From: Promethearchaeota archaeon
GTDB lineage: Archaea > Asgardarchaeota > Lokiarchaeia > Sigyniarchaeales > SOKP01
Assembly: GCA_011364975.1 (NCBI GenBank)
Contig: RDOE01000048.1
Coordinates: 1 to 25,402, forward strand
Direction: 5' to 3'
Length of the DNA stretch: 25,402 bases
Below, piece by piece: positions 2,272 through 24,215 of this stretch; the first letter of the stretch is position 1; each line of letters begins with the position of its first letter. The notes below the pieces were generated by a model. The model was not told the DNA's origin. It did no database searches and was given only the letters and a program-made list of their open reading frames with translations. The position numbers and the translations under genes are program-made.

Positions 2272-2276
2272 TTTTA

Positions 2277-2951: not shown

Positions 2952-3068
2952 ATAAATTCCTCTGAAATAATTTTTAATGTAAAGTTTTTATATAACTCAT
3001 GGGAGAACGAAAATAAAAATATAGGTTTAAAATAAACTATTAACAAGAAAAAATAATTTAATTACAAC

Positions 3069-4466: not shown

Positions 4467-4589
4467 GATAATATCATTATAAAACTTTCAAATTAATTAT
4501 ATTTTATATTATTTGAATTTTAACCAATAATAAGCTTATGTTTTTACAGCTAAACGTGTCTTTGTAGCTTCTGCGAATTAATTTAAAGA

Positions 4590-6402: not shown

Positions 6403-7845
6403 TTATTTTATACCTAAACTCATTATTCTATCTTGGTTTTCTTGTATCTTATCCGGAGTTAACTTATAATATCTCCAGAAGAAAAAAGCCCCTATAAATA
6501 TAAATATTGCGGGAATTAATCCTAAATGTATCTGAATTCCAATTACAGCAGATTGAGGCTGAACGCTTGGTGCTCCTCCTTCTATAAATCCAGTAAAATA
6601 ATGTACTAGCGCAAATGTAATTGCTTGAGCAACTATACCTAACCGAGCGAAAAATTGTGAAAATCCACTATAAACCCCCTCCTCTCGTTTTCCCGTAATT
6701 GCTACAGACTCATCAATAACATCGGACATGACAGGAAAAATCATGAACCAAAACCCTGAAAGTCCAAAGACGCCCCAAATTAACATATTAATTACAACTG
6801 CCCAGTAGTTTGTCAAAAATAGTAAAGGAAGCGCGAATATTCCTAAGAATAAAGATGAAATCAACATTACTTTTTTATTGTTATTCATTTTGTGAGAAAT
6901 TTTAACCCATATAGGTGTTGCCAAAATTACTCCCACAAGAAATGCTGCAAAGATAAGGGTCGCCATTAGATTAATCGATAAACCTGCGGGCTGATCAATA
7001 ACATAAGTAACAGCATAATTAATCGAATTTTGCATCGTGACAATCTGAGATTGGTACATAGTATAAATAATCATATATATTATGAAAGAATTTTGTTTGA
7101 GAGCGCCTTTTAAGGATTTAAAAAAAGAGTCTCTTTGTGGACTTTTTTCATAAATCATTAGATAATTATCGATCATTTCCTTATCCTCTTTAAATCCAGG
7201 AATTGCGAGTAATATTCCAAGAAGACATATTAACCCTACGACTATACCTTGGACGATAAAAGAGAATAAAACTTGATCATGAGGGGCTTGGCCCGGATAT
7301 TTGAATACCAGAGGGGGAACTAAAGCTCCTAAAGCAACTCCAACTACACCTATTGGAATATAAATACCACTAGCAATTCTTCGTTCTTTATTTGATCGAT
7401 GCTTTTCAGGAAATAAGGCCATAAAATTTACAAAATATAACGAATGAAACGTGTCAAAAAGACATGCTGTAAGTAGTAACCATGCAAATAAAAACCATTG
7501 TCCAGACACTGGATCTGTAATCGGAGGTGTAAATACTATGATATAACTTAACGCAAGAGGGATGCCACCTATTAATAACCATGGAAATCGTCGCCCCCAT
7601 TTCTGAGTAAATTTAAATGGGCGATTAGTTAAATATCCGAGTATTGGATCGTTAAACATATTGTAGATTGCGAATAAAAATATGGATAAGAATACGATCC
7701 ACACGTCTAGGCCAACTACTGCTTCGTAATAAAAGAATACTGTAGCTGTAAAAGCCATGTTTATAAATTCCCTTGCCATGGATCCCATGCCATAAGATGC
7801 CATATTTAACTTACTGTGTTTTATTTCAATTTCTTGTTCTGCCAT
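6403..7845 (-). CDS. GPH-family (MelB/UidB-like) sugar:cation symporter, MFS_2
   Basis: Motifs NDPILGYLTN, KWGRRFPWL, ERRIAS, SDVID...TGKREEGVY. ORF track start is GTG 7854; ATG 7845 is likelier. Confidence 0.92.
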   Translation of the reverse strand: MAEQEIEIKHSKLNMASYGMGSMAREFINMAFTATVFFYYEAVVGLDVWIVFLSIFLFAIYNMFNDPILGYLTNRPFKFTQKWGRRFPWLLIGGIPLALSYIIVFTPPITDPVSGQWFLFAWLLLTACLFDTFHSLYFVNFMALFPEKHRSNKERRIASGIYIPIGVVGVALGALVPPLVFKYPGQAPHDQVLFSFIVQGIVVGLICLLGILLAIPGFKEDKEMIDNYLMIYEKSPQRDSFFKSLKGALKQNSFIIYMIIYTMYQSQIVTMQNSINYAVTYVIDQPAGLSINLMATLIFAAFLVGVILATPIWVKISHKMNNNKKVMLISSLFLGIFALPLLFLTNYWAVVINMLIWGVFGLSGFWFMIFPVMSDVIDESVAITGKREEGVYSGFSQFFARLGIVAQAITFALVHYFTGFIEGGAPSVQPQSAVIGIQIHLGLIPAIFIFIGAFFFWRYYKLTPDKIQENQDRIMSLGIK

Positions 7846-7910
7846 TAATATCACTAAATTTTATTCTAAAGAGAATTTTTTAGATAGTTTTTTAATAATT
7901 AGTGAAAATG

Positions 7911-8113: not shown

Positions 8114-9394
8114 TTGCCTACCAAACCTAACATCATTGTTTTTATCACACATGATCAAGGGCAGTTTTTGGGATGCTATAATACACCCCTTACTCCAAAT
8201 TCATTAAAAACGCCAAATTTAGATAAGATTGCCAAGGAAGGAATTCGATTTACAAACTATTTCTGTACGGCACCCCAATGCAGTCCAAGCCGTGGTAGTA
8301 TCCAAACGTCATTATATCCTCACCAAAATGGGCTAATGGGATTGACAAATAAAGGTTGGAATTTGCCTGCTTCAAATAAAACACTTCCAATGTATCTGAA
8401 AGATAAGGGTTATACTACACATCTCATTGGACTCCAACATGAAACAAACTATCCAGAAACTCTTGGTTATGATACGATGAATGAACGGGTAGGATATCAT
8501 AAATATACTACTAAAAAGCTAAATAATCAGTTTTGCGAATTTCTTATATCCCATAAGAAAGATAAAAAACCTTTTTATGCAAATTTTGGGGTTATTGAAG
8601 TACACAGACCTTTTTCAGCTTTTGGAGATCCAGTTGATGTGGATAAAGTTATAATTCCTCCCTTTTTGCCAGAAAATGAGAAAATTCGAAAGGATTTCGC
8701 AGAATTCTACGGATTAATCCATACGGTAGATGCAACCATAGGAAAAATAATGGATTGCCTAATGGATACTAAATTATATGAAAATACGCTTTTTATTTTT
8801 ACCACTGACCACGGAGCTCCTTTCCCTAGGGCTAAATGTACACTATATGACCCTGGCATCAAAACTGTTTTACTTATACAACTTCCTTCTTCATCCAATT
8901 TTAGCGGAGGAGATATATATGAAGAATTACTGAGTAATATAGATCTTTTACCCACATTGATAGAATTAACAGGAGGAACTGTACCTAAAAATGTTGAAGG
9001 CCAAAGTTTTCTTCCTTTATTAAAAGGAGAAACTGATAAAATAAATAATTCAATCTACACTGAAAAATCATATCATGACCAATACGATCCTATAAGAGGA
9101 ATAAGAACTAAAAATTATAAATTAATCTACAATTTTGAGCCGTTGAATACCCAATATCTAATGCCAGTAGATATTGATAGAAGTTACTCTGGACAGATTA
9201 TGAAAGAACTATATAATCGACCTCGAGAACAATTTGAGTTATATGATTTACAGAAGGACCCCCATGAAACTAGAAATCTTATTCAGAATTTAGAATATCA
9301 AGATATTGCAATTGACTTAAAGAAACAGTTATTAACTTGGTTAAAATCAACAAATGATCCTATACTTAGAGGAAAAATACCTCCCCACGGTTAA
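8114..9394 (+). CDS. Formylglycine-dependent (S1) sulfatase, sulfamidase-like
   Basis: KPNIIVFITHD, CSPSR (CxPxR), TTDHG, DLLPT, ELYDLQKDPHE; TTG start. Confidence 0.93.
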   Translation: MPTKPNIIVFITHDQGQFLGCYNTPLTPNSLKTPNLDKIAKEGIRFTNYFCTAPQCSPSRGSIQTSLYPHQNGLMGLTNKGWNLPASNKTLPMYLKDKGYTTHLIGLQHETNYPETLGYDTMNERVGYHKYTTKKLNNQFCEFLISHKKDKKPFYANFGVIEVHRPFSAFGDPVDVDKVIIPPFLPENEKIRKDFAEFYGLIHTVDATIGKIMDCLMDTKLYENTLFIFTTDHGAPFPRAKCTLYDPGIKTVLLIQLPSSSNFSGGDIYEELLSNIDLLPTLIELTGGTVPKNVEGQSFLPLLKGETDKINNSIYTEKSYHDQYDPIRGIRTKNYKLIYNFEPLNTQYLMPVDIDRSYSGQIMKELYNRPREQFELYDLQKDPHETRNLIQNLEYQDIAIDLKKQLLTWLKSTNDPILRGKIPPHG

Positions 9395-9433: not shown

Positions 9434-10714
9434 ATGTTCGAATGTTTAAAAGATTGTTGCGAAAAAGTTGATTTAAAGGCTATTGATGACTTGAAAGATA
9501 TTGAGGGAACCGAATTTTATCAAAAAGTTATAAAGGTTTTCCCTAATATAGAAAAAATATGTAATCAAGGTAAAAAAAAAGATATCATTGAGTTTGTTCG
9601 CACCTTGAAACATATTTTTAGAACCTTTAAGACATATTATCTCATGATTGAAGATAAATTTACGCATGAAACACTATCTAAAGATATTGAATATAAAATA
9701 TGTAAAAAAGCAAAAGATGTGAATTCTTGTAATGAAAACTTAATGCCATTAATTTTAATATATCATGATCTTGGAAGGCTTATTCAAAAGAGAGATCATC
9801 CATACCAAAGTTATAAACTAATTATTGAAAATGGATTGCTAAAACCATATAAACTTAACCCCCAAGAAAATCTATTAATTACGAAAGTAATTCAGTATCA
9901 TCTACTCTTTGCAACTATATATACTGGTGAATCAACTTTTTATGGAGTCTATTCCCTTTTAAATGATACTGATCTTTTTAAACTATTTTCAAAGAATAAA
10001 TTTAGTAAATCATTCATAGATTTACTTGAAATTTTTACATTTATTGATATTCTAGGATATCCATATTCTCAAATTTATGACCACTACTTAAAATATTATG
10101 ACGAGATTAATTTAATATTAAATATTATTTTTGAGAGTTGGGAAAATAGAGATGAAGCTTTAAAGTTAGCATTTGATTATTCAGTAAAATGGATTAATTG
10201 GAGATTAGCTGGAGCATTGAGAATCTTTCAGTTTGTAGAAACAGAACCTGCCCTTACTGTAGAGTTTTATTATGATAAAATAAAAGAGAATATTAGAAAT
10301 TCTAAAAATGCCATATTAGAAAAAATGAATTGGGATAAGATTAAAGAAATTTATTTAAAACCTACTTGTAGAGTTCAATTAAAATATGCTCTTGGATTTT
10401 TAATGATTTTAGCGTTTGGAAAGTTCAGTAGATCTAAATTAAATGTTAAAGACGAGATTTCTGACAGATTAATTCTATTCTGGATATTTTTATCCCAAGA
10501 AATGCAAAAAAGAGTGCCAAATACAGATATTTATTTATGGAACGTATTTATCGTTGGGATTAAAAATTGGTTCGGATTAAATCAAAATCAATTAAGCAGT
10601 CTTACAGAAGAATATATTCAAAAAGTAATACATGCTGCTTCATTTGAATTTCAGGAGGATAAATTGGAATATAATCTCTCCTTAGATTTTAAAGACTTAA
10701 ACAGTTTAATTTGA
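9434..10714 (+). CDS. HD-domain protein with unknown C-terminal region
   Basis: Ordered motifs H(IFRT)...YHDLG...HPYQS...QYHL...FIDILG match the H...HD...H...H...D pattern of HD phosphohydrolases. Confidence 0.7.
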   Translation: MFECLKDCCEKVDLKAIDDLKDIEGTEFYQKVIKVFPNIEKICNQGKKKDIIEFVRTLKHIFRTFKTYYLMIEDKFTHETLSKDIEYKICKKAKDVNSCNENLMPLILIYHDLGRLIQKRDHPYQSYKLIIENGLLKPYKLNPQENLLITKVIQYHLLFATIYTGESTFYGVYSLLNDTDLFKLFSKNKFSKSFIDLLEIFTFIDILGYPYSQIYDHYLKYYDEINLILNIIFESWENRDEALKLAFDYSVKWINWRLAGALRIFQFVETEPALTVEFYYDKIKENIRNSKNAILEKMNWDKIKEIYLKPTCRVQLKYALGFLMILAFGKFSRSKLNVKDEISDRLILFWIFLSQEMQKRVPNTDIYLWNVFIVGIKNWFGLNQNQLSSLTEEYIQKVIHAASFEFQEDKLEYNLSLDFKDLNSLI

Positions 10715-11790: not shown

Positions 11791-12822
11791 TTAAAATCGT
11801 TTCTCTTTTTTAGGATAACCTTGAAAGGGAGTTCTCGGTTCAAAACTAATCCATTTTCCCTCGGCTTTTATTTTTGAAAGGGAGCGTAAAATGTCAAAAG
11901 TAAGCCATCGTGATGCTTCAGGATGTAAAGTACATTCCCATAGCCCGTATTCCCCTTGTAGACTTTTTACAAAATTAATTAATTCTGCTAATCGTAGATC
12001 TGATGTATTAACTCCTATTTTCCAACATAAGTTAAGCAGATGAGCAGGGTCTAATTTGGGATAATAAGTGATCCATCCCCGAGAAGGTTCCAATCCAATT
12101 AAGCGAGATATCACAAAACCTAAATTATATTTCTCCTTAGTCTCGCATCCAAGCACTAGGTCCATTGCTCGTTGTATTTCTATTGAATTTTTACGTTTAG
12201 GATGATATGAAAAACAATTTAAGACACCAATGGTTGTTGAGCGACAACCCAATCGTGAGTGTGCAATACGGCGATATCCCCCTATTTTGCCATAAACACC
12301 GGAAGTTATACCAACCGGCCAAGCTCCATCATCTAGTTTACATTCTAAAAGCCAATCATATGCTTTTTCAGCTCTCTTATCCGTTGAATACCCGCATGAT
12401 GCGATCCCCTCAAGAGGAATGGCAGTTTGAAGTGGTTGCATATCATATCCTTTAAATTCATTATTCCTCCTTGCTTTTGGTAAGGGCCAAGAACCATCGC
12501 TTTTTTGTTTGGAAAATAGAAATTCCACTGCATTTTTGATAGAGGGATTATTAGAAGGAAATTGAAGGTATCCTAATCTCACTAAGGCTTGAGAGGTTGC
12601 TTGAATATTTCCACCTGGTGCTGTAGAACCCACAATATCTTTATCCCATGACCCATTATGTAATTGGGATTTTAAAAGTGATTGAGCAATTAAATCATTT
12701 TCTTGTAATTCCTTTAGTTCTTGTACCTCTGAGTCATCTTCTTGTCTATGTAACAATTCTTTTAATACTAATAATCGTAAACTTGGTGAAGGATCAGATA
12801 ATAAAAGTGGAATCCATGTCAT
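11791..12822 (-). CDS. Prenyltransferase/squalene-oxidase-repeat (QW-motif alpha/alpha-barrel) protein, function unknown
   Basis: Repeats SQLHNGSW, KQKSDGSW, CKLDDGAW, LQGEYGLW; no DXDD cyclase motif; ATG overlaps the upstream stop (TAATG). Confidence 0.8.
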   Translation of the reverse strand: MTWIPLLLSDPSPSLRLLVLKELLHRQEDDSEVQELKELQENDLIAQSLLKSQLHNGSWDKDIVGSTAPGGNIQATSQALVRLGYLQFPSNNPSIKNAVEFLFSKQKSDGSWPLPKARRNNEFKGYDMQPLQTAIPLEGIASCGYSTDKRAEKAYDWLLECKLDDGAWPVGITSGVYGKIGGYRRIAHSRLGCRSTTIGVLNCFSYHPKRKNSIEIQRAMDLVLGCETKEKYNLGFVISRLIGLEPSRGWITYYPKLDPAHLLNLCWKIGVNTSDLRLAELINFVKSLQGEYGLWECTLHPEASRWLTFDILRSLSKIKAEGKWISFEPRTPFQGYPKKEKRF

Positions 12823-15800
12823 TATACTTCCTCCAAAACATTTTTTATATAACTTGAAGAGGGAGTAGTTCCCTCAGCAATCATTTCGGGAGTGCCCTCT
12901 GCAATAATATAACCTCCTTTTGGACCGCCTTCTGGTCCCAGTTCAATTAACCAATCGCATGAAGCTAATAAGTGTGGATGATGTTCAATAATAACTACTG
13001 TATGTCCTTTTTCAACGAGATTTTGGAGAATTTTTATAAGATTCGATATATCTTCTAGATGTTGCCCCACTGTAGGTTCATCTAGTATGTATAAGGTTTT
13101 ACCAGATGTTTTTTTGCTTAATTCTTTTGCTATTTTCATTCTCTGAGCTTCTCCTCCTGAAAGAGAATAAACTGGTTGGCTTATAACTAAATAGCCAAGG
13201 CCAACATCTCTAATGAGTTCTAATTTTTGCTTTAACTCCTCTTTATCCTTAAAAAGATCATAAACTTCATCAATTGTTAGATTTTTAACTTCAGGAAGCG
13301 TAACACCTTTTACTTTAACTTGCCACGCCTCTTTGGAGTATCCCGTTCCATTACAAATTTCGCAAGGATTTATAATGTTTGGAAGAAAACCCATATCTGT
13401 TTTAATTATTCCAAAGCCTCTACAAACTGTGCATTTCTTATTAAGATCTTTTTCTGTTAATTCTAAAAGCTGTGCATCTTCACTCTCACCAAAGATTTTC
13501 AATAATACTTTATCTAATTCGAGATATCTCATTGGATTTGAAATATAGGCTTTTGACTGGTCAATAATAATAGTTTTACTTAATTCTCCAGTCACACTTT
13601 CATATTGTTCTGGATTTATGGGTTCATAAGCCACTGAAGTAGTATGCCTCTTTGGAGCAAGTGCTCTCCCTAAGGTATCAATAATTAAAGAACTTTTACC
13701 AGAACCAGAAACACCACAAATTCCCACTAATAATCCATGGGGTATCTTAAGTGTATTCCCTTTAAGATTATTTCCCGTAGCTCCTGTGATGGTTAACCAT
13801 TTCTTAGGTTTTCTTCGGGTTTTATGAATGTTCATTTTTCGAATCCCGCTTAACCATTTGGCTGTGATAGTATCTCTATTTATAAGATCAATTGGCCTTC
13901 CCTCAGCTATTACTTTTCCTCCATTTATGCCTGCTCCGGGTCCTAAATCAATTAAATGGTCAGCAGCTTTTATAAGCATAAGATCATGCTCAACCATAAT
14001 AATCGTATTTCCCTTATTCTTTAATTCATAAATACTATCCAATAATGCATTAAGTTCACTTGGATGTAAACCTCGAGAAGGTTCATCAAGTAACACTGTA
14101 AGAGACGTTAACTCACTTCCTAATAAACCTGCTAAACGAACACGTTGGGCCTCTCCAGCCGAAAGAGAATCAGCAGGACGATTTAAATTTATATAACCTA
14201 ATCCCGTCTTTTTTAAAAAGTTTAGGCGATTAATTATAATAGATAAACTATTTGACACTAATTTATCATTTATTTCCGCTTTTTTAATACTATTAATTTC
14301 ATCAAGAAGTTCATTTAATGATAATTCACTTAGCTGATGTATATTATTTCCATCTAAAGTAATCGCAAGATATTCTGGTCTAAGTTTAGCACCTTTACAG
14401 ACTTTACAGTTTTGTGTCTCGGAATAAGTACCTCCAATATCCCAATCTCTTATAAAATCTGAATAAATTCCCCAAATTCTTGATTTTCTCACGTAACTTT
14501 GACCCTTTTTATTTTCATAAAAGATTTCAACGGGTTCTTTATCTCCATATAAGAAAGCATTCTGAGCTTCTTTAGACATCAAATTCCAAGGAGTCTCAAA
14601 TGGATCAAAATTATATTTCTTACTTAAAGCTTGTAGCATGTAATAGCCCCCATTATAAGGTTTACATAAAAATCCTTTTGGAAAGAAGCCTGGAGAATAC
14701 ATAGCACCTTTGCAGAGAGGTTTTTCAGGATGAATAATTAATTTTTCTGGTCTTGGGATTTGAATTGTTCCAACTCCATGACAAGCTTTGCATGCTGCTC
14801 GATAATTAGATGAATTAAACATATTAGGAGTTGCAATTGGTAATTTTATATTACAATCATTACAGATCCAATTATCACTTTTTTCCATTGAATTTCCACA
14901 TTTTGGACAGTGATTCTCACCAAAAGCAGCGAGTAAGTTATTAAGATGAAGAGAAATTCCAGTTACCTTTCCCATAGTATTCCGAAGATTAAAAAATCTA
15001 GCATACATTTTAGTTTCTGGAAAAATCGTTGTTGTGACATTTAATCCTGAAATTTCATCCACCAACGCTTCTGTAGTTTCATGAGTAGTTTGGCGTTCAT
15101 ACATCGAAAGGGTTTCTAAATACCGACGAATTGCTTCGGATTCAATAATATCAATTACTAAACTTGATTTTCCTGAACCAGAAACCCCAGTCACTACTGT
15201 AAACTTATTTTTTGGAATCTCAACATCAACATTTTTTAAATTATGGATATGAGCATTCTTGATTATTATATTTTTATAACCCTTTTGAGAATCTACCCTT
15301 TTTTCTGGTTTAGGTATCACTTTTTTTTCATTTAACAATGCTCTCGTAGTTAAAGACTTTTGATTTTTTAGAAGATTCTCAAAGCTTCCAGAAAATATCA
15401 CTTCTCCACCCTTTTCTCCAGCACCTAAACCCAAATCTATCACCCAATCAGCAGCTTTAATAATATCTAAATTGTGCTCGACAATGATAACCGTAGCACC
15501 TGCTCTTACGATTCGGTCTAAAATAACTAACAATCCGTTTAAATCTTGAGGATGAAGCCCGGTAGAAGGTTCATCTAATATAATTAATTGTTCCTTTAAT
15601 GAACTTTTTCCTAGATATTTTGTTAATTTAATTCTCTGTGCCTCTCCTCCTGAAAGAGAGGGCGATGATTGCCCTAATGGTAAATAACCCAAACCTATTT
15701 CTTCAAGAGTATTTAGCATTTTTAAAAATTTTTGATGGTCATTAACACTTAACCACTTTTCCTTACTTAATACGGCTTTAACTTCAGAAACAGATAATCG

Positions 15801-17696
15801 ATAGAAATCAGCAATCGAATACTTATTATTTTCAATGGTTATCTTAGCGGATATAACCTTATCATTAAAGCGATTTTCTTCGCAAGATTGACATGGAATC
15901 CATGTAGATGGTAAATATCGCATCTTAACCTCAATAGCACCCATACCTCTGCAGGTAGGACATGCACCCTCGGGTCTATTAAAAGAAAAGTGAGATTCAG
16001 ATAAATTAGTCGATTTAGCAAATAATTTTCTTAACAAATCTGATATTTTAGTATAAGTTGCTGGATTTGACCGTGGATTTTTTCCAATTGGACTTTGATC
16101 CACCATTATAACTTTTAATGCAGTAGTTTTAAGCTCTTTACATCCAATAGGTTTCTTTTGCTTTAACGACGCAAATAATACATCCTCAACTAAAGTACTT
16201 TTTCCTGAACCTGAAATGCCTGTTATTACTGTTAAGCGGTGAAGAGGTATCTGAATGTCAATATTCTTTAGATTATGCTGATAAGCACCATTTATTGTAA
16301 TAAATTGAGTAGGTTCTGACCTAAATTTTGGTTTCATAACCTCAGTTCTAAGAGAGAAATAATTACCCGTTGCTGTATTGGACTTCCATAATTCGGAGGG
16401 CGTTCCTTTAAAAATTATTTTACCCCCATCTATTCCCGCCTTTGGTCCAATATCTATTGCATAATCTGCTATTGATGCTGCAAACCTATCATGCTCTACA
16501 TAAATTACTGGTCCTTTCAGATTACTTAAAACAGGCAAGAAATTTTGAGTGTCATGAAAGTGTTGACCAATTGTAGGCTCATCAAGTACATGTAATATAT
16601 CTTCTAACTCACTTATCATATTAACTGCAATTCTAATTCTCTGAGACTCTCCTCTCGATAAAGAAGGAGAAACTCTATCTAAAGTTAGATATCCAAGCCC
16701 TACTGCTTTAAGCGAAGATAATCGTTTCATAATTTCATTTAAAATGCGATCAGCAGTACTTGGTAATTCTACAGTTTTAAATAGTTGTAATAAATCCTCT
16801 ACGGGAAGAGATAATAACGTAGGAAATGTCTTTTTCGAAAATAATACTGAGGATGCAATTGGATGGAGTTTTGTAAAATTACATTTTGAGCAACCTTTTC
16901 CTTTACAGTGAGGACAAGACATATGAAAATATTTTGGCTCAAGTTCTTTAAGCCAGACTCCACATTCTTGACAAGATTTAGTCAAAGATATCTTTCTATT
17001 TTCATTTTCATTTTTCAAAGAAACTACACTTACGCCTAAGCCTTTTACCGTGCTCAGTAGTTCGCGAATTTGACTTAAAGATGTTTTATTGTCTAACTTA
17101 TCTAATTCAACTAAAATTGTATGGGGATTTTTTGGATTTAAACTAGTTTTGTTCCACCTTATTCCATCAACTATTATCTTATTTGCTTCAAATTGCGATT
17201 CTAATAACTTTAATAAGGTTTGATGGCTTCCTTGAACATTATAAACTAATTGAGCAAATACTACAATACTGAGTTCTCTAGTATTTTTTAATAAGTAATC
17301 AGAAATTTCATCATATGACAAAATATTGATATTAGCACCACAATTTGGGCATCTTCTTTCTCCGAACCTAGAATAAAGTATTCGAAAAAGAGGGTGTAGC
17401 CCTGATGCAGTTGCTAAAGTCGAATTAGGATTACGATTAAGTAAATTTTGTCCTACTGCTACAGTAGGTCTTAATCCGGTTATAGAACGAACTTTTGCTG
17501 GAGCTAATCTTAATCCTTTTGAACCATAAGAAAAATATTCTAAAAATCGCCTTCGAGCTTCGTGATAAAGTGTATCGAAAACTAAAGATGATTTTCCAGA
17601 GCCAGAAACACCTGTTACAATCGTTAAACCAGCTCCAAATTCAACATTTACATCCTTTAAGTTATTTTCGGCAGCTCCATCTATTTTGATATTCAT
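12822..17696 (-). CDS. uvrA: Double-length UvrA-family excinuclease/ABC ATPase with four nucleotide-binding domains
   Basis: Four Walker A (G[VI]SGSGKS), four signature motifs (LSRGE, LSGGE, LSAGE, LSGGE), four LDEP Walker B, H-loops, multiple CxxC zinc sites, and UvrA hallmarks (NLKNID, RSNPATY, FSFN, GLGYL). Confidence 0.93.
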   Translation of the reverse strand: MNIKIDGAAENNLKDVNVEFGAGLTIVTGVSGSGKSSLVFDTLYHEARRRFLEYFSYGSKGLRLAPAKVRSITGLRPTVAVGQNLLNRNPNSTLATASGLHPLFRILYSRFGERRCPNCGANINILSYDEISDYLLKNTRELSIVVFAQLVYNVQGSHQTLLKLLESQFEANKIIVDGIRWNKTSLNPKNPHTILVELDKLDNKTSLSQIRELLSTVKGLGVSVVSLKNENENRKISLTKSCQECGVWLKELEPKYFHMSCPHCKGKGCSKCNFTKLHPIASSVLFSKKTFPTLLSLPVEDLLQLFKTVELPSTADRILNEIMKRLSSLKAVGLGYLTLDRVSPSLSRGESQRIRIAVNMISELEDILHVLDEPTIGQHFHDTQNFLPVLSNLKGPVIYVEHDRFAASIADYAIDIGPKAGIDGGKIIFKGTPSELWKSNTATGNYFSLRTEVMKPKFRSEPTQFITINGAYQHNLKNIDIQIPLHRLTVITGISGSGKSTLVEDVLFASLKQKKPIGCKELKTTALKVIMVDQSPIGKNPRSNPATYTKISDLLRKLFAKSTNLSESHFSFNRPEGACPTCRGMGAIEVKMRYLPSTWIPCQSCEENRFNDKVISAKITIENNKYSIADFYRLSVSEVKAVLSKEKWLSVNDHQKFLKMLNTLEEIGLGYLPLGQSSPSLSGGEAQRIKLTKYLGKSSLKEQLIILDEPSTGLHPQDLNGLLVILDRIVRAGATVIIVEHNLDIIKAADWVIDLGLGAGEKGGEVIFSGSFENLLKNQKSLTTRALLNEKKVIPKPEKRVDSQKGYKNIIIKNAHIHNLKNVDVEIPKNKFTVVTGVSGSGKSSLVIDIIESEAIRRYLETLSMYERQTTHETTEALVDEISGLNVTTTIFPETKMYARFFNLRNTMGKVTGISLHLNNLLAAFGENHCPKCGNSMEKSDNWICNDCNIKLPIATPNMFNSSNYRAACKACHGVGTIQIPRPEKLIIHPEKPLCKGAMYSPGFFPKGFLCKPYNGGYYMLQALSKKYNFDPFETPWNLMSKEAQNAFLYGDKEPVEIFYENKKGQSYVRKSRIWGIYSDFIRDWDIGGTYSETQNCKVCKGAKLRPEYLAITLDGNNIHQLSELSLNELLDEINSIKKAEINDKLVSNSLSIIINRLNFLKKTGLGYINLNRPADSLSAGEAQRVRLAGLLGSELTSLTVLLDEPSRGLHPSELNALLDSIYELKNKGNTIIMVEHDLMLIKAADHLIDLGPGAGINGGKVIAEGRPIDLINRDTITAKWLSGIRKMNIHKTRRKPKKWLTITGATGNNLKGNTLKIPHGLLVGICGVSGSGKSSLIIDTLGRALAPKRHTTSVAYEPINPEQYESVTGELSKTIIIDQSKAYISNPMRYLELDKVLLKIFGESEDAQLLELTEKDLNKKCTVCRGFGIIKTDMGFLPNIINPCEICNGTGYSKEAWQVKVKGVTLPEVKNLTIDEVYDLFKDKEELKQKLELIRDVGLGYLVISQPVYSLSGGEAQRMKIAKELSKKTSGKTLYILDEPTVGQHLEDISNLIKILQNLVEKGHTVVIIEHHPHLLASCDWLIELGPEGGPKGGYIIAEGTPEMIAEGTTPSSSYIKNVLEEV

Positions 17697-19929: not shown

Positions 19930-21885
19930 TCATTTAATTGATTTTATGCTTTCAAAAAGAGCCTTAAATGATGAAGCTTTACGATAAAAAACTGGAGGTA
20001 TCCCAATTGGAGCATCTACAACAATCCATCCCCCTTGATATTCAACTCCCGTCCAAAGGTGAATCCAGTTATCTTTTGGAAGATATACCTCCCATTTTTT
20101 ATGATCGGGTTTGATAACAGGTGCAATAAAAAGATCTCTGCCTAAAAGGTATTGAAATTTATTATTTTGTAATTCAGGATCATCTTCATAGTGCATGAAA
20201 CATCCTCTAATAGGAGATAAGCCTTTATTTTGATATTCATCTGATAAATGTTGAAGGTATGGTTTTAATTCTACATGAATTTTAACCATTTTTGCTAAAT
20301 GATGTAAGGTTTCATTATCACTATCAAATTGCCAATTTTCGGTAGGCCGATTTCCCTCATGAGTCCTCATAACCATAGAAAAAGTAGCATTTTCTGCGGA
20401 ACGCATAAATAATTCCTTAGTTCTTTTAAACTTACCATAAGTCGTAAAACAACCAATGTCAAATTGATAATACCCTATCCCACATAAACCGATATTTATC
20501 GCAGCAGGAATAACCGAGGGGAGGCCTAATTCTTCATCCCAATCAACTCTTTGATCCCCAGAAAATTGAATTATGGAATATTTTGAAGTACCCAAAAATC
20601 CCGATCGCGCAAAAAATATTAATTCCCCAAGTAAATTTGTTTCTTTTATCACTTCATAATTTAGTTTTGTCCACAATGTAGGAGAAATATTGTGAAATTG
20701 TTCTCCTGAAATACCTGAATAAGGAACAGAGTCAACAGGAACATATTCTCCATAGTCTACCATCCACCCGTCTAATCCGATACCAACCATATTTTTCTTC
20801 ATAATATCTTTTAACCATTCAACTGCGTTAGGATTTGAAAAATCTATTTGGGCGGCAGGAAAATCTGTCATCGTGGTATAGTAATCCTTTCCATCTTTGT
20901 CTTTTAAACAGTACCCCTTTTTTGTAGCTTCTTTATAGAGATTTCCCTCTATAGCGAGCATTGAATTTATATATCCTAAAAACCGTATCCCATGTGATTC
21001 TAATTTTTTAATATAATCTGGAAGGTTAGGATAAAGTTTGTCATCATATTTCCAATCCCAAAAAAGTTGTTTACCAAAAGAAGTGTATCGTATACCTTGC
21101 CAATCTTGGCACCATACTGCTGTGACTTTTAAATTATAGTCTAAAGCTTTTTGTATTTTTTCATCTATAATTTCTGGTCCGCCTTGAATTCCAAGCCATA
21201 TACCATCGAATACCCATTCTGGAAGTTTTGGTTGTAATCCAAGATACTTATTTAATTCTGAAATAGTTTTAAGTAGCGAGTCATACTTTCCAATTAATAT
21301 TTCAGATGGGATGTTCCAAAAATGTAGCTCATGATATAAGTCCGATTCAAAATTAAAAACAGAGTAAGAATTAATCTCAACATGGCAAAAATAATGATTG
21401 CTTGATATAAAATTTGGTTGTGGGAAATAAGTATGATCACCTCTTAATTCAGGAGAAGCATCTTGAACCCAGATTGGAATAATATTACCTTTAAGATTTA
21501 AAAGTCTAAATTGTTCTCCGCATCCATAAACGCTCTCATCTTTATATGAAACTATATTCATCCAAAATCGATTAATATCCTCATTCTCAGATTTCGGGGT
21601 TATAAGAAGTTTATCTTCTTTAACAAAAAATTCTACAACTAAATTATAATTATCTTCACTAAATTCAATAATTACCTGATTATCTGATTTATTAAGAATT
21701 TTGAATTTTTTCAAAAGAATTGTTTTTATGATATTATCTTTTATTGTAAAACTAGCATGGCTTTGTTTATATTTACCAATTCCTATTCCAATTTTAAAGC
21801 ATGGATTTTCAGGATTGTGAGAAAAAAATAGATTGTCCCTAAAGTAAATCTTAAATTTCTCATTATCTTGTTCGAATTTAATCAT
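19930..21885 (-). CDS. yihQ: GH31 alpha-glycosidase of the YihQ/sulfoquinovosidase subfamily
   Basis: YGCGEQF, LGIQGG, QDWQGIRYTSFGKQLFWDW, WMVDYGE (nucleophile Asp), GDQ.VDW (acid/base Asp) and MRTHEGNRP closely follow E. coli YihQ as recalled. Family is secure; substrate is less so. Confidence 0.85.
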   Translation of the reverse strand: MIKFEQDNEKFKIYFRDNLFFSHNPENPCFKIGIGIGKYKQSHASFTIKDNIIKTILLKKFKILNKSDNQVIIEFSEDNYNLVVEFFVKEDKLLITPKSENEDINRFWMNIVSYKDESVYGCGEQFRLLNLKGNIIPIWVQDASPELRGDHTYFPQPNFISSNHYFCHVEINSYSVFNFESDLYHELHFWNIPSEILIGKYDSLLKTISELNKYLGLQPKLPEWVFDGIWLGIQGGPEIIDEKIQKALDYNLKVTAVWCQDWQGIRYTSFGKQLFWDWKYDDKLYPNLPDYIKKLESHGIRFLGYINSMLAIEGNLYKEATKKGYCLKDKDGKDYYTTMTDFPAAQIDFSNPNAVEWLKDIMKKNMVGIGLDGWMVDYGEYVPVDSVPYSGISGEQFHNISPTLWTKLNYEVIKETNLLGELIFFARSGFLGTSKYSIIQFSGDQRVDWDEELGLPSVIPAAINIGLCGIGYYQFDIGCFTTYGKFKRTKELFMRSAENATFSMVMRTHEGNRPTENWQFDSDNETLHHLAKMVKIHVELKPYLQHLSDEYQNKGLSPIRGCFMHYEDDPELQNNKFQYLLGRDLFIAPVIKPDHKKWEVYLPKDNWIHLWTGVEYQGGWIVVDAPIGIPPVFYRKASSFKALFESIKSIK

Positions 21886-21960
21886 TTAACAATAAGGCGT
21901 TATATAATAAATATTATAATTCAAAATTTTACATTAAATTTATACCTAACAAATTTTTTT

Positions 21961-22059
21961 TTGAGAGATTAAAGCAACAGTACGATTGTTGAAGCTGTAG
22001 CAGATGGACACCGAATAGCTATGGAAATCGATAGAAAATTAAAAAAAGTAAATATTTGA
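21961..22059 (+). pseudogene. Remnant C-terminus of a GltD/NfnB-like FAD/NAD(P) oxidoreductase
   Basis: Translation LRD*SNSTIVEAVADGHRIAMEIDRKLKKVNI* resembles the terminal GD...T[VI]VEA[IV]AxGxxxAxxID motif of that family; the rest of the gene is absent. Confidence 0.6.
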
Positions 22060-22071
22060 CCTCAATAATTT

Positions 22072-23388
22072 TTAATTAACTATTTTCCATCCCTTTATCT
22101 TGGCAAAAATTTCTAGAGGTTTAATGAAGTCGCCATAAACCACAGATATGTGATGGGCGATTCCATTGTAAATTATTTTATCTAATACATTTTTTATGTT
22201 CTGATTAAATTTAACTTTAACATAAGTACCCTTCAATTCTTTACTCATTGGAATACCTTTTGCTTTCTGTAAAAATAATCTATATTCACCTGGAGCATAA
22301 TCTATTCTTAACATTGATATTTCTCCAGATTTCATGACAAAATCAGCAGTCACCCCTTTTCCGCCAGCAAAATATGTATCCAGTGATCTCTTACATAATC
22401 CATCCCATAAATTACACGCTGCAACTCCACAATGCCAGAGCAACCCATAATCCTCTTTAAGATCTACTTGGGAAAAATCTGCTAAAAATGGAGTTCCCCC
22501 TCCTATGACCTTATGAGCAAGCATAGATAGAGCCCCTAAAATATCTCCTTCACAAGTAAGAATTTTATACTCTGATTGCAAAATAGACATTGCCGCACAA
22601 GGAGAAATACCATATTCTGCAGCAAATTCAGGCCAGCAACGAATAGCTATCCCATCTAAATTATTAGAATTCATAAAGTCATTAAATTTAGCAGTTAGCG
22701 ACGCAACCTTTTCTAATTGTCCATTAGAAATACCAGAGACGTCAAAAATTGATTTTATCTGATTTATCCTTTCCTTAATACTTGCGTCACTTACTTTAAA
22801 ATTAAATATCTCACTTAACTCAAAATGATCTATAAGAACTCCAAGCTCTCGGTATAAATCTAATTCATCTATATCTAAATTAAAAAAACCTTTAGCACGA
22901 TAACCTATTATACCAATATGTTTTGTTGAAAATGCTTTTAAAATGCGAATAGCATCTAACCAATCAGTATCTATCTGATTTCCAATTATTGCATAAAAAT
23001 TTTTTACTCCTGCTTTATATAAATTACTAGAATTTAGATTAATTCCGCATACTGAATTTAATCTAATTTTACCCCCGTCATATGGAAGTTCTTCTAAGCC
23101 CCATAATAAAATGGGCTTTTTAATAATTTTATTTATCTCTAAAATTAAATGACCTAAGGCAAATGTACCGCTAATACAAACTAAGCCATCGATATCTTTC
23201 GATTGAAGAAATTTAGCTGCTTTTTGAGCGTCATGGATTTCGATCAACAGCTCAGAAACTATTTCCCACTCAACGCTTTCAATCTTTTCTAAATCAGATT
23301 GAATTTTTAAATAAATTTCTTTTGCAGCTTTGTAATCAAAAGTTGTCCTAGCTAAACATACAACCCCAATTGTTATTAGTTGCTTCAT
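22072..23388 (-). CDS. L-fucose/L-arabinose-isomerase-superfamily sugar isomerase, SqvD/SftI (sulfoquinovose isomerase)-like
   Basis: RCWPEF, CEGD, WHCG and AHH motifs of the fucose-isomerase-like fold. N-terminal RTTFD and GGKIRLNSVCG resemble RKTFD and GGRLRLNSLTG as I recall them from Bacillus SftI/SqvD. ORF track start is TTG 23400; ATG 23388 is likelier. Confidence 0.75.
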   Translation of the reverse strand: MKQLITIGVVCLARTTFDYKAAKEIYLKIQSDLEKIESVEWEIVSELLIEIHDAQKAAKFLQSKDIDGLVCISGTFALGHLILEINKIIKKPILLWGLEELPYDGGKIRLNSVCGINLNSSNLYKAGVKNFYAIIGNQIDTDWLDAIRILKAFSTKHIGIIGYRAKGFFNLDIDELDLYRELGVLIDHFELSEIFNFKVSDASIKERINQIKSIFDVSGISNGQLEKVASLTAKFNDFMNSNNLDGIAIRCWPEFAAEYGISPCAAMSILQSEYKILTCEGDILGALSMLAHKVIGGGTPFLADFSQVDLKEDYGLLWHCGVAACNLWDGLCKRSLDTYFAGGKGVTADFVMKSGEISMLRIDYAPGEYRLFLQKAKGIPMSKELKGTYVKVKFNQNIKNVLDKIIYNGIAHHISVVYGDFIKPLEIFAKIKGWKIVN

Positions 23389-23591
23389 AGTTTTTATCAA
23401 ATATCTTAATAATCAAGAAAATTATCTTTTTTTAATTAAAATATTTCATTGTATTATATATTTATATCTAATAATTATTAGTTATTTCAAATGGAGAGAT
23501 CTATGATAATCTCCTTTAAGATATTAGGTTACAATTCAATCATTCAACTTCTCTAAGGATAAAAATATAATTATAATTTAGATTTTAACGG

Positions 23592-23951
23592 TTATTGGTT
23601 AATGAAATCTTTAAATGATAATTTAGACCACTCTTGGATTATTAAAAATTTATTTCTCTCCGAGCTCCTTGGAGCCATTCCTGGGATTTCTTGTTTTTTA
23701 CTTTTAACAGGACCAATATCTTTCATATAATGTTTAGGACCTTCTTTAGCGTCTCTACTAAATAGTACACAGAAACCACGATCATCTCGGATCCAACCAT
23801 CTTTAAAGAATCCTAAATGCTTACCGTTATAATGATAGACAGAATTTCCATATATGTAAGCAACGGGTTCTCCACTAAACAGGAATATATTACAATTATC
23901 TTCAGTATAGGCTATGGGAGTTCCTCGTTTATTAAAGAAAGTTCTTGACAA
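23592..23951 (-). CDS. Small beta-hairpin-repeat protein resembling the 4-fold beta-flower family
   Basis: Four short repeats (FFNKRGTPIAY, IFLFSGEPVAY, VYHYNGKHLGF, IRDDRGFCVLF) followed by a P/K-rich tail ending WS; TTG start. Confidence 0.65.
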   Translation of the reverse strand: MSRTFFNKRGTPIAYTEDNCNIFLFSGEPVAYIYGNSVYHYNGKHLGFFKDGWIRDDRGFCVLFSRDAKEGPKHYMKDIGPVKSKKQEIPGMAPRSSERNKFLIIQEWSKLSFKDFINQ

Positions 23952-24215
23952 ATTATTTTAAACCAGATTTAATTATAATATAACTTCTTAAGATATTTAA
24001 TATAATAGGGGCATTTAAAAATTTTTTAATCGAAATGATCAATTCCGGTGAAATTATATCCTCATAATCGACGGTTTAGTAAAAAAAAACTCTTATTTTT
24101 ACGTGTTTAGCAAACATTTATATGACAATATTTTCTCATTATACCTTAAGCTATCTTTTTGATGGTTAATCTATAAAAAAATGGTATAATGAATATATTT
24201 TAATGGCGAAAAATT

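What the first reader, a model, noticed from the sequence alone, without database searches (positions are those of the whole stretch)
19930..23388. Candidate sulfoglycolysis entry module (SQ isomerase + sulfoquinovosidase) in a probable Asgard archaeon
Seen: a fucose-isomerase-fold gene lies directly upstream of, and co-oriented with, a YihQ-subfamily GH31. Established: bacterial sulfo-transaldolase (SFT/sulfo-TAL) and sulfo-transketolase pathways pair an SqvD/SftI isomerase with a GH31 sulfoquinovosidase to turn SQ-glycosides into sulfofructose. The isomerase carries RTTFD and GGKIRLNSVCG, which resemble the SftI/SqvD segments I recall. Inference: this organism may catabolise sulfoquinovose from sulfolipid, a role I do not know to be characterised in Asgard archaea. 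The downstream transaldolase/transketolase and dehydrogenase are not in this window.
Basis: partly seen in the sequence, partly recalled or inferred. Interest (0 to 1): 0.8.

Follow-up and report, generated by a model that had tools for sequence, protein, structure and literature searches.

The report
Orphaned sulfoquinovose entry genes, Asgard archaeon
Two neighbouring genes in this Asgard archaeon match the first two steps of a bacterial pathway for eating the plant and algal sulfosugar sulfoquinovose, and related Asgard genomes carry more of that pathway, but here the next enzyme is missing and the sugar-releasing enzyme lacks two residues that normally hold the sulfonate group.

Summary
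A 438-aa AraA/FucI-superfamily isomerase (22072-23388, minus strand) lies upstream of, and co-oriented with, a 651-aa YihQ-type GH31 (19930-21885).

Orthologues of both genes (isomerase 57-78% identical, GH31 46-69%) form the core of a gene cluster in related Asgard genomes. That cluster also holds a transaldolase whose best solved match is the Bacillus megaterium sulfofructose transaldolase. Of the 47 isomerase-bearing genomes among 400 searched in the phylum, 35 have this transaldolase. Bacterial relatives of the isomerase sit in sulfo-transketolase or sulfo-transaldolase clusters.

Three things cut against a working pathway here:
- The isomerase is not in the Bacillus SftI clade (220 bits against a 700-bit cut-off).
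- The GH31 has Gln and Phe where YihQ has the sulfonate-binding Arg301 and Tyr508. None of 28 Asgard copies has both Arg and Tyr.
- This 99%-complete genome has no transaldolase, transketolase, class II aldolase, or YihS, YihT or YihU homologue.

My reading is a retained sulfoquinovose entry module whose downstream step is unknown or lost. I found no paper on sulfoquinovose catabolism in Asgard archaea.

The parts
22072..23388 (-). AraA/FucI-superfamily aldose-ketose isomerase of 438 aa from the ATG at 23388 (an alternative TTG lies at 23400). It is an orthologue of the isomerase of sulfo-TAL and sulfo-TK clusters and the candidate sulfoquinovose-to-sulfofructose isomerase.
   Evidence: (NF048012 at 220.2 bits, cut-off 700). 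dN/dS is 0.18 against a 93%-identical relative.
19930..21885 (-). YihQ-type GH31 alpha-glycosidase of 651 aa. The catalytic residues D377 and D444 and the residues Q234, Q260, W276 and H509 are kept. The equivalent of YihQ R301 is Q273 and that of Y508 is F480.
   Evidence: (NF007746 at 739.8 bits, cut-off 553).
21886..22071 (-). 186-nt spacer between the two genes. Read on the minus strand, it has a T7 run about 25 nt after the isomerase stop and an AT-rich, TATA-like stretch about 15-25 nt before the GH31 ATG. It is the longest such gap seen; the 24 related loci range from -19 to 129 nt.
   Evidence: Similarity to the 93%-identical relative L083 ends at the isomerase stop codon. The terminator and promoter reading is inference from the sequence only.
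23389..23591 (-). 5' intergenic region of the isomerase. In 11 of 40 related Asgard loci the sulfofructose-transaldolase gene sits directly upstream here. In this window the next gene is a 119-aa Bflower-family protein (23592-23951).
   Evidence: Contig X12 record 23 (23354-24076) bridges this junction in an independent run.
6403..7854 (-). GPH-family (MFS_2) cation symporter, a tentative importer of the glycoside substrate. It is in the same protein cluster as symporters next to the isomerase in 12 of 26 genome-contig loci and 13 of 40 Asgard loci. It is 45% identical to the one in the L005 cluster.
   Evidence: It lies 12 kb from the GH31 here, so its membership is an inference.

Best explanation
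The two genes are the isomerase-then-glycosidase core of a sulfoquinovose (SQ) catabolic cluster of the sulfo-transaldolase type. This cluster type is shared laterally between Clostridia-like bacteria and Lokiarchaeia-type Asgard archaea.

The most likely mechanism runs as follows. An SQ glycoside such as sulfoquinovosyl glycerol from algal or cyanobacterial sulfolipid is imported, perhaps by the GPH symporter at 6403-7854. The cytoplasmic retaining GH31 (nucleophile D377, acid/base D444) releases SQ. The metal-dependent isomerase converts SQ to 6-deoxy-6-sulfofructose.

In this genome the module stands alone. The sulfofructose transaldolase that relatives encode directly upstream is absent, so the fate of sulfofructose is unknown.

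Shown: orthology, conserved adjacency, cluster context in relatives, the residue states, absence of the known downstream genes, and purifying selection on the isomerase. Inferred: the substrate, the importer, and that the module is still in use.
For: 1. Family. The GH31 passes the curated YihQ-type cut-off (739.8 against 553 bits). It is 42% identical to E. coli YihQ and keeps Q262, Q288, W304, D405, D472 and H537.

2. Context of isomerase relatives in genome contigs (26 loci). A YihQ-type GH31 is in 14 of them, a GPH symporter in 12, TauE in 9, DUF4867/SftX in 9, a TAL/FSA protein in 7, a split transketolase in 7 (N-terminal half) and 6 (C-terminal half), an RpiB-type isomerase in 7, an Fe-alcohol dehydrogenase in 5 and an HIBADH-type reductase in 5. 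These are the parts listed for sulfo-TK and sulfo-TAL clusters in the figure legend of PMC13219744 (passages read).

3. Context in Asgard genomes (40 loci). A GH31 is in 27 and lies directly downstream in 24. A TAL_FSA gene is in 27 and lies directly upstream in 11. Its best solved match is B. megaterium sulfofructose transaldolase 8bc3 at 303 bits, against 154 bits for the best ordinary transaldolase.

4. Co-occurrence across the phylum. The isomerase is in 47 of 400 genomes. This transaldolase type is in 38, and 35 genomes have both.

5. Trees. The window isomerase sits in a clade supported at 100 SH-like or SH-aLRT. That clade consists of sequences from such clusters plus four representatives of unknown context.

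6. Constraint. dN/dS is 0.18 for the isomerase against a 93%-identical relative over 341 codons. The window GH31 is no more diverged from its closest clade (64-69%) than those members are from each other (65-82%). Both reading frames are intact.

7. A second species of the genus (G270, 100% complete) also keeps the pair without any transaldolase.

8. Gln plus Phe at the sulfonate positions also occurs in three Asgard genomes that do have the sulfofructose transaldolase (L077, and the genomes of L064 and L067).
Against: 1. Both R301 and Y508 of YihQ are replaced (Q273, F480). All four solved sulfoquinovosidases (E. coli, 8r56, E. rectale 6pnr, A. tumefaciens) have Arg and Tyr. Passages in PMC12780224 and in bioRxiv 10.64898/2026.02.11.705467 describe these residues as sulfonate-recognition residues.

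2. The isomerase scores 220 bits on the SftI model against a 700-bit cut-off and lies far from the SftI-model clade. No member of its own clade has been assayed, as far as I could see.

3. No route onward from sulfofructose was found in the genome:
- no PF00923 transaldolase, no match to a profile of 27 Asgard sulfofructose transaldolases at E<=1, and no transaldolase match at E<=1e-20 in the phylum search, which included this genome
- no PF00456 transketolase and no PF01116 aldolase
- no tblastn hit for the HIBADH-type reductase, TauE, DUF4867, RpiB or transketolase cluster representatives
- no hit for E. coli YihR, YihS, YihT or YihU, and only 26% identity between YihV and a generic PfkB kinase.

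4. The closest relative of the isomerase (L083, 93% identical) has no GH31 downstream. The 186-nt spacer is the longest seen. The two genes may therefore not be co-transcribed here.

5. There are no expression data.
Confidence: 0.5

Rival explanations
1. Remnant. The lineage inherited a complete sulfo-transaldolase cluster, lost the transaldolase, and no longer catabolises sulfoquinovose. The two genes persist by drift or for a minor salvage role and are on their way to loss.
For: No transaldolase, transketolase or aldolase route in a 99.25%-complete genome. Another gene occupies the canonical transaldolase position. The GH31 has neither the Arg nor the Tyr. The spacer is widened to 186 nt. 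The isomerase's nearest relative has already lost the adjacent GH31. The genes are patchy within the genus: 14 of 41 other genomes have the isomerase.
Against: Both frames are intact. dN/dS for the isomerase is 0.18. The GH31 shows no excess divergence. A second species (G270) keeps the same transaldolase-less pair. The arrangement recurs nearly unchanged in DNA runs of 6 studies.
Confidence: 0.22
2. Repurposed. The GH31 and isomerase now act on a related but non-sulfonated or differently substituted alpha-glycoside, for example a quinovoside (6-deoxyglucoside) or an ordinary alpha-glucoside. The resulting ketose enters central metabolism through the genome's PFK or PfkB kinases and class I aldolases.
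For: Replacing Arg by Gln and Tyr by Phe removes the charge and a hydrogen-bond donor from the pocket that holds the sulfonate in YihQ. The sulfonate-specific partners are absent. The genome has one PFK, seven PfkB matches over the cut-off plus one weak one, and three DeoC-family aldolases.
Against: The same Gln or Phe states occur in GH31 genes that sit beside a sulfofructose-transaldolase orthologue in Asgard genomes (Q+Y in 11 of 15 loci, R+F in 7 of 9, Q+F in 1 of 4). They also occur in rumen Clostridia clusters with TauE or DUF4867 (L025, L028) or with TAL and HIBADH (L018, L021, L028). These states therefore do not by themselves mean loss of sulfosugar use. None of the kinases or aldolases is linked to the pair, and the one DeoC-family gene I annotated is an ADH synthase.
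Confidence: 0.15
3. The complete sulfo-transaldolase pathway is present, but the transaldolase gene is missing from the metagenome-assembled genome through a gap or a binning error.
For: The genome is in 200 contigs with 6.09% estimated contamination. The window is a whole contig that ends 2 kb upstream of the isomerase. Loose ends in laid contigs at 23984 and 24527 show strain variants in that region.
Against: Estimated completeness is 99.25%. In relatives the transaldolase sits 9-98 nt upstream of the isomerase, whereas here that place holds a Bflower gene, confirmed by an independent contig. Contigs that run 699 and 1645 nt beyond the window end exist, but I could not read them. G270 (100% complete) shows the same absence.
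Confidence: 0.08

Closest known systems
Sulfo-transaldolase (sulfo-TAL / sulfo-SFT) pathway of Bacillus aryabhattai, B. megaterium and Eubacterium rectale: SftG/YihQ sulfoquinovosidase, SftI SQ isomerase, SftT sulfofructose transaldolase (names from passages in PMC11968277 and PMC13219744)
   Same: The gene types and the order of the first two reactions are the same. Asgard relatives add a transaldolase whose best solved match is B. megaterium sulfofructose transaldolase (303 bits), an HIBADH-type reductase (5 loci) and exporters.
   Different: This genome has no transaldolase and no sulfolactaldehyde reductase. The isomerase belongs to a different clade from the SftI equivalog. The GH31 pocket lacks Arg and Tyr. 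The host is an archaeon.
Sulfo-transketolase pathway clusters of rumen and anaerobic Clostridia and Sphaerochaetaceae (SftI, SqwGH, SqwI, SqwF; PMC13219744, passages)
   Same: The closest bacterial relatives of the window isomerase (51-66% identical) sit in clusters with a split transketolase, an RpiB-type isomerase, an Fe-alcohol dehydrogenase, TauE, DUF4867 and YihQ (L007, L008, L014, L015).
   Different: Neither this genome nor the 40 Asgard loci examined has transketolase genes. The GH31 of those four bacterial clusters has the canonical Arg and Tyr.
E. coli YihQ sulfoquinovosidase (PDB 5aed; yih sulfo-EMP operon)
   Same: 42% identity over 648 aligned residues, with the same catalytic Asp pair and Q262, Q288, W304 and H537.
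   Different: R301 is Gln and Y508 is Phe. The E. coli partners YihS (a different isomerase fold), YihT, YihU and YihR have no homologue in this genome.

Membership tests
YihQ-type GH31 sulfoquinovosidase | GH31 fold and a score above the curated YihQ-type model cut-off | tested here: met
   PF01055, PF21365 and PF13802. NF007746 at 739.8 bits against a 553-bit cut-off. 621.9 bits against 5aed.
YihQ-type GH31 sulfoquinovosidase | Catalytic nucleophile D405 and acid/base D472 (E. coli numbering) | tested here: met
   D377 and D444. Both are Asp in all 121 sequences compared (the window protein plus 120 homologues).
YihQ-type GH31 sulfoquinovosidase | Q288 (or E270 with K245), Q262 and H537 for sugar hydroxyl binding | tested here: met
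   Q260, Q234 and H509. Residue roles are taken from a passage in bioRxiv 10.64898/2026.02.11.705467.
YihQ-type GH31 sulfoquinovosidase | Sulfonate-binding triad R301, W304 and Y508 | tested here: not met
   Q273, W276 and F480, so only Trp is kept. All four solved enzymes have R, W and Y. Among the 28 Asgard GH31 genes near the isomerase: R+F 9, Q+Y 15, Q+F 4, R+Y 0.
YihQ-type GH31 sulfoquinovosidase | Hydrolysis of sulfoquinovosides | not testable with these tools
   This needs an enzyme assay.
SftI (SqvD) sulfoquinovose isomerase, NCBIfam NF048012 | Score above the curated equivalog cut-off of 700 bits | tested here: not met
   220.2 bits. Of the 109 representatives scanned (out of 119 full-length ones), only P0305 passes, at 738 bits.
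SftI (SqvD) sulfoquinovose isomerase, NCBIfam NF048012 | Placement in the SftI clade | tested here: not met
   The window clade (39 rows at 100* in FastTree; 24 rows at 100* in IQ-TREE quick) is separate from the clade of high scorers on the SftI model (14 rows at 99*; 9 rows at 97*). The roots are midpoints only.
SftI (SqvD) sulfoquinovose isomerase, NCBIfam NF048012 | AraA/FucI-type fold with conserved metal and catalytic acidic and His residues | tested here: met
   The family profile matches L-arabinose isomerase 4r1o at E 1.3e-16. E284, D286, D308, H323 and H417 are invariant in 63 sequences. The assignment to the metal site is an inference from the alignment.
SftI (SqvD) sulfoquinovose isomerase, NCBIfam NF048012 | Genomic association with sulfoquinovosidase and sulfofructose-cleaving enzymes | tested here: inconclusive
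   Met for orthologues: 35 of 47 isomerase genomes have the sulfofructose-type transaldolase, and bacterial loci have transketolase or TAL genes. In this genome only the GH31 is present.
Complete sulfo-TAL pathway | Sulfofructose transaldolase present | tested here: not met
   No PF00923 match. No match to the profile of 27 Asgard sulfofructose transaldolases at E<=1 over the six-frame translation. No transaldolase match at E<=1e-20 in the phylum search, which included this genome. Genome completeness is 99.25%.
Complete sulfo-TAL pathway | Sulfolactaldehyde reductase or dehydrogenase, and a sulfonate exporter | tested here: inconclusive
   No tblastn hit for the cluster HIBADH-type reductases or for YihU. 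The genome has four generic TauE genes and a Mem_trans homologue on C181 (47% identical), but they are not linked to the pair. Aldehyde dehydrogenases were not searched.

The most novel reading that the evidence does not exclude
Lokiarchaeia-type Asgard archaea of marine and estuarine sediments catabolise sulfoquinovose from sinking algal sulfolipid, using a laterally acquired cluster. Its YihQ-type enzyme recognises the sulfonate without the canonical Arg-Tyr pair. In this lineage and its congener G270, sulfofructose is processed by a route that needs no transaldolase, transketolase or known aldolase, which would be a further, undescribed branch of sulfoglycolysis.
Probability: 0.15. Interest if true: 0.8.

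Novelty: new variant of a known kind. Interest (0 to 1): 0.5.

Why it matters
Every paper on sulfoquinovose breakdown that I read assigns it to bacteria. My three searches pairing sulfoquinovose or sulfoglycolysis terms with Asgard lineage names listed no paper on such catabolism in Asgard archaea.

The comparison set here suggests that about a tenth of the sampled Asgard genomes (35 of 400 have both the isomerase and the sulfofructose-type transaldolase) carry a sulfo-transaldolase-type cluster. That would give these sediment archaea a defined organosulfur substrate and a testable link to algal detritus.

It also shows that the Arg-Trp-Tyr rule used to recognise sulfoquinovosidases does not hold for a large Asgard and Clostridia branch of the family (0 of 28 Asgard copies have both Arg and Tyr). 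This bears on annotation and on yihQ-based surveys.

The window itself is the less tidy case. It is an entry module without a known continuation, so it is either decay caught in progress or a pointer to an unknown sulfofructose-cleaving step.

Tried and rejected
- Sulfo-EMP continuation: E. coli YihR, YihS, YihT and YihU have no tblastn hit in the genome at E<=1e-3, and YihV is only 26% identical to generic PfkB kinases. There is no PF01116 match. The DeoC-family gene near a TauE gene on C150 is an ADH synthase, a housekeeping enzyme.
- C65 (homologue of the L005 cluster MFS, 63% identical) and C181 (Mem_trans and GPH): the neighbours are Fe-S proteins, BKACE, 3HCDH and MR_MLE. I saw no sulfosugar link.
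- Genes that recur beside the isomerase in transaldolase-less relatives (a8 amidohydrolase, a9, a18, a19, the L057 luciferase-like gene, the L053 molybdopterin oxidoreductase): absent or only weakly matched in this genome. None explains the missing step.
- A compensating basic residue in the Gln-type GH31 enzymes: one column (window K487) is more often basic in the Gln type, but E. coli YihQ also has Lys there, so it is not compensation.
- Accelerated evolution of the window GH31: not seen.
- In-frame stops reported inside the isomerase matches of G260 and G264: for G260, the stop is the codon just before the start, and the gene is intact. G264 was not checked.
- No RNA holder was listed for the stretch, so nothing can be said about expression.
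- Structure prediction was not accepting jobs. No models were made and no fold search was run.
- PMC6161063 (Abayakoon 2018) and PubMed 26878550 (Speciale 2016), the primary sources for the residue roles, are not held. The roles are cited from passages in later papers.
- Supplements were not seen. The YihQ reference tree and tables of PMC13219744, and the genome survey tables of PMC13372026, may list archaeal hits.


Full report
WHAT IS THERE. The window is a whole 25.4-kb contig (C148) of a 3.74-Mb genome in 200 contigs, estimated 99.25% complete and 6.09% contaminated, with about 30% G+C. On the minus strand, an ORF at 22072-23400 lies upstream of an ORF at 19930-21885, separated by 186 nt. 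The upstream ORF is 442 aa from a TTG. The ATG at 23388 gives 438 aa, the length of nearly all listed homologues. The downstream ORF is 651 aa.

The downstream protein is a GH31 with the three family domains. It passes NCBIfam's YihQ-type model NF007746 at 739.8 bits against a cut-off of 553. It scores 621.9 bits against E. coli YihQ (5aed) and 490-606 bits against three other solved sulfoquinovosidases.

The upstream protein hits only NF048012 (SftI), at 220.2 bits against a cut-off of 700, and has no sequence match in the PDB on its own. A profile of 63 relatives reaches L-arabinose isomerase (E 1.3e-16, nearly full length) and L-fucose and D-arabinose isomerases. E284, D286, D308, H323 and H417 are invariant across the 63 sequences.

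IS THE ORGANISM AN ASGARD ARCHAEON? Yes, as far as these data go. The 120 best isomerase homologues and the 120 best GH31 homologues that carry a source name are called Lokiarchaeota, Promethearchaeota, Hermodarchaeota, Heimdallarchaeota, Thorarchaeota, Helarchaeota or Hodarchaeota, apart from one Bacillota GH31. The contig also shares gene order with genomes of the same genus: an AlaX-like gene, a sulfatase, an unnamed 426-aa gene and a GPH symporter.

WHAT THE RELATIVES SAY ABOUT THE ISOMERASE. A scan of one genome per species found 26 loci encoding relatives 51-77% identical. Four were Asgard or unclassified archaea. The rest were Clostridia, a Sphaerochaetaceae, a Thermotogae and a Vallitaleaceae. 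I called ORFs in each locus with a simple caller of my own, grouped them by all-against-all BLASTP and annotated one representative per group.

Number of the 26 loci holding each neighbour:

| Neighbour | Loci |
|---|---|
| YihQ-type GH31 | 14 |
| GPH symporter | 12 |
| ROK regulator | 10 |
| TauE | 9 |
| DUF4867 | 9 |
| TAL/FSA | 7 |
| Transketolase, N-terminal half | 7 |
| Transketolase, C-terminal half | 6 |
| RpiB-type isomerase | 7 |
| Fe-alcohol dehydrogenase | 5 |
| HIBADH-type reductase | 5 |

These are the components named for the sulfo-transketolase and sulfo-transaldolase pathways in a figure legend of PMC13219744 (passages read: SftI, SqwGH, SqwI, SqwF, SftT, SftX = DUF4867). PMC11968277 (passages read) describes DUF4867 as recurring in sulfo-SFT, sulfo-TK and sulfo-EMP clusters.

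ASGARD GENOMES. The isomerase (E<=1e-60) is in 47 of 400 genomes of the phylum, counting this one. That includes 14 of 41 other genomes of the genus and 35 of 134 of the family. I fetched up to 20 kb around 40 of them, leaving out six mostly partial matches (G266, G152, G280, G259, G144, G269).
- A GH31 is present in 27 of the 40 loci and lies directly downstream on the same strand in 24, with gaps of -19 to 129 nt.
- A 222-aa TAL_FSA gene is present in 27 and lies directly upstream in 11.
- GPH symporters are in 13 loci, with up to six in tandem in L046.
- A Mem_trans-family carrier is in 11, an HIBADH-type reductase in 5, and a ferredoxin plus aldehyde:ferredoxin oxidoreductase pair in 4.

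The transaldolase is not an ordinary one. Its best solved matches are the three B. megaterium sulfofructose-transaldolase entries (8bc3, 8bc4, 8bc2; 300-303 bits), against 154 bits for the best general transaldolase. Searched across the phylum, matches fall into two groups. One is 64-100% identical to the query, in 38 genomes. The other is 45% identical or less. Of the 47 isomerase genomes, 35 have the first type. Only three genomes have that type without the isomerase, and two of those are 61% and 78% complete. I read this as good evidence that a sulfo-transaldolase-type cluster exists in Asgard archaea.

Related genomes are not independent, so I attach no statistic to these counts.

TREES. 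In a FastTree tree of 116 rows, the window sits in a 39-row clade with SH-like support of 100. The rows were the window, 23 genome-contig loci, 11 Asgard loci, the first 75 full-length representatives and the 14 representatives with the highest SftI-model scores. The 39-row clade contains all sequences taken from the clusters above plus four representatives of unknown context. The 14 high scorers on the SftI model form a separate clade at 99.

An IQ-TREE quick tree of 56 rows gives the same picture: 24 rows at 100, and 9 rows at 97. In it the Asgard rows nest within bacterial rows, which suggests transfer from bacteria. That depends on a midpoint root and I did not test it.

Of the 109 representatives scanned (out of 119 full-length ones), only one passes the SftI cut-off. 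It belongs instead to a second clade with an equally strong contextual link to sulfoglycolysis.

THE GH31 POCKET. I aligned the window protein with E. coli YihQ taken from the K-12 record (42% identity). Q262, Q288, W304, D405, D472 and H537 are kept, but R301 is Gln (Q273) and Y508 is Phe (F480). All four solved sulfoquinovosidases have Arg and Tyr there.

Passages in PMC12780224 and in bioRxiv 10.64898/2026.02.11.705467 give R301, W304 and Y508 as the sulfonate-recognition residues. I could not read the primary papers.

This is not a peculiarity of the window. Among 121 sequences (the window protein plus its 120 best homologues), 53 have Arg and 61 have Gln at the first position. The 28 Asgard GH31 genes near the isomerase (27 loci plus the window) divide as follows:

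| Residues at YihQ 301 + 508 | GH31 genes | With the sulfofructose-type transaldolase in the fetched locus |
|---|---|---|
| Arg + Phe | 9 | 7 |
| Gln + Tyr | 15 | 11 |
| Gln + Phe | 4 (window, L077, L064, L067) | 1 |
| Arg + Tyr | 0 | - |

Two further Gln + Phe genomes have the transaldolase elsewhere. Rumen Clostridia loci with Gln + Tyr also carry partner genes: L025 has TauE and DUF4867; L018 and L021 have TAL and HIBADH; L028 has all four. The four bacterial sulfo-transketolase loci (L007, L008, L014, L015) have the canonical pair.

The departure from the triad is therefore real and fails a defining feature of the characterised enzymes. It does not by itself show that the substrate has changed.

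WHAT IS MISSING HERE.
- No PF00923 transaldolase.
- No match at E<=1 to a profile built from 27 Asgard sulfofructose transaldolases, over all six frames of the genome.
- No remnant in the window (best tblastn E 0.28).
- No PF00456 transketolase.
- No class II aldolase.
- No tblastn hit for the cluster HIBADH-type reductases, TauE, DUF4867, RpiB or transketolase representatives.
- No hit for E. coli YihR, YihS, YihT or YihU.
- Generic TauE (4 copies), PFK (1), PfkB (7 matches over the cut-off plus one weak one) and DeoC-family (3) genes exist, but none is linked to the pair. The one DeoC-family gene I annotated is an ADH synthase.

In place of the transaldolase, the window has a 119-aa Bflower-family gene and then a trypsin-like gene that runs off the contig. 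Independent assemblies agree. The stretch is held in 20 DNA runs of 6 studies. Contigs from three different studies bridge the spacer between the GH31 and the isomerase, and one bridges the isomerase start into the Bflower gene.

A second species of the genus, G270 (100% complete), has the same arrangement and no transaldolase. In all, 12 of the 47 isomerase genomes lack the sulfofructose-type transaldolase. Six of these have only an ordinary transaldolase. The other six have none at E<=1e-20, and three of those six are 69-86% complete.

IS THE MODULE STILL UNDER SELECTION? The isomerase compared with a 93%-identical metagenomic relative (L083) gives dN/dS of 0.18 over 341 codons. The window GH31 is 64-69% identical to the six members of its closest clade, which are 65-82% identical to each other. 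The corresponding isomerase figures are 72-77% and 70-85%. So there is no sign of relaxed constraint on the GH31.

Against this, the L083 relative has no GH31 downstream, and its similarity to the window ends exactly at the isomerase stop codon. Within the genus, nearly identical isomerases are paired with GH31 genes only 51-54% identical to the window's. The glycosidase has evidently been exchanged while the isomerase stayed.

The 186-nt spacer carries a T7 run after the isomerase stop and an AT-rich stretch before the GH31 start. I read this as possible separate transcription, but only from the sequence.

VERDICT. The pair is real, conserved and orthologous to sulfoglycolysis entry genes. 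The wider reading, that Asgard archaea carry sulfo-transaldolase-type clusters, is well supported by gene content and appears unreported in the literature I could search. Searches listed no paper on it. PMC13372026 and PMC12780224 mention archaea only in their reference lists. I did not see any supplements.

For this genome, the entry module is orphaned. I put about 0.5 on it still acting on sulfoquinovose glycosides with an unknown continuation, about 0.22 on a remnant, about 0.15 on a changed substrate and about 0.08 on an assembly gap. None of the enzyme activities has been tested.

Noticed in passing
L065, L073, L075, L078 (for example L078:5878-7704 and L075:4096-4599): In four Asgard loci a ferredoxin (about 165 aa) and an aldehyde:ferredoxin oxidoreductase (about 608 aa) lie near the isomerase. 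In L065 they sit directly between the sulfofructose-type transaldolase and the isomerase. This could be a ferredoxin-linked oxidation of sulfolactaldehyde to sulfolactate, an anaerobe's alternative to the NAD-dependent dehydrogenase.
   Followed up: partly
L005:13430-14632 (the same locus as L056): A fused sulfopyruvate or phosphonopyruvate decarboxylase-like protein (400 aa; TIGR03846 at 173.9 bits, TIGR03845 at 116 bits) and an MFS transporter follow the GH31 in one Promethearchaeota cluster. This hints at further processing of C3 sulfonates.
   Followed up: no
L053:7095-8147 and the matching 350-aa gene in L055: A 350-aa membrane protein with a sulfite-oxidase-type molybdopterin domain (PF00174, plus DUF4079) lies between the transaldolase and the isomerase in two same-genus genomes.
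   Followed up: no
L057:9107-9940 (G270): In the other transaldolase-less genome, a 277-aa luciferase-like monooxygenase-family gene lies divergently upstream of the isomerase. It has no homologue in the window's genome.
   Followed up: partly
window 12822-17696 (-): A 1624-aa UvrA-like protein, about 1.7 times normal UvrA length, with extra ABC ATPase modules (TIGR00630 at 1399 bits, matched in 5 stretches). A 1625-aa counterpart sits at the same relative position in G270 (L057).
   Followed up: no
window 8114-9394 (+) and 9434-10714 (+): A sulfatase and an unnamed 426-aa protein with no Pfam or NCBIfam match stand next to the GPH symporter. The same trio lies one gene away from the transaldolase-isomerase-GH31 cluster in L051 and L052, so they may be functionally linked to it.
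   Followed up: partly
L046 and L066: Five or six tandem GPH-family symporter genes lie directly upstream of the transaldolase-isomerase genes in two Asgard genomes.
   Followed up: no
G000:C1:6770-7888 (L002): A second, distant FucI/AraA-like gene in the same genome (102 bits on the SftI model), with one TGA inside the match.
   Followed up: no
window 23984 and 24527: Laid contigs from two runs (X1, X3) diverge from the window at 23984 and rejoin at 24527. Some strains therefore carry different sequence between the Bflower gene and the trypsin-like gene.
   Followed up: no
window 1801-4970 (-): Four consecutive minus-strand ORFs (159, 224, 465 and 126 aa) have no Pfam or NCBIfam match.
   Followed up: no
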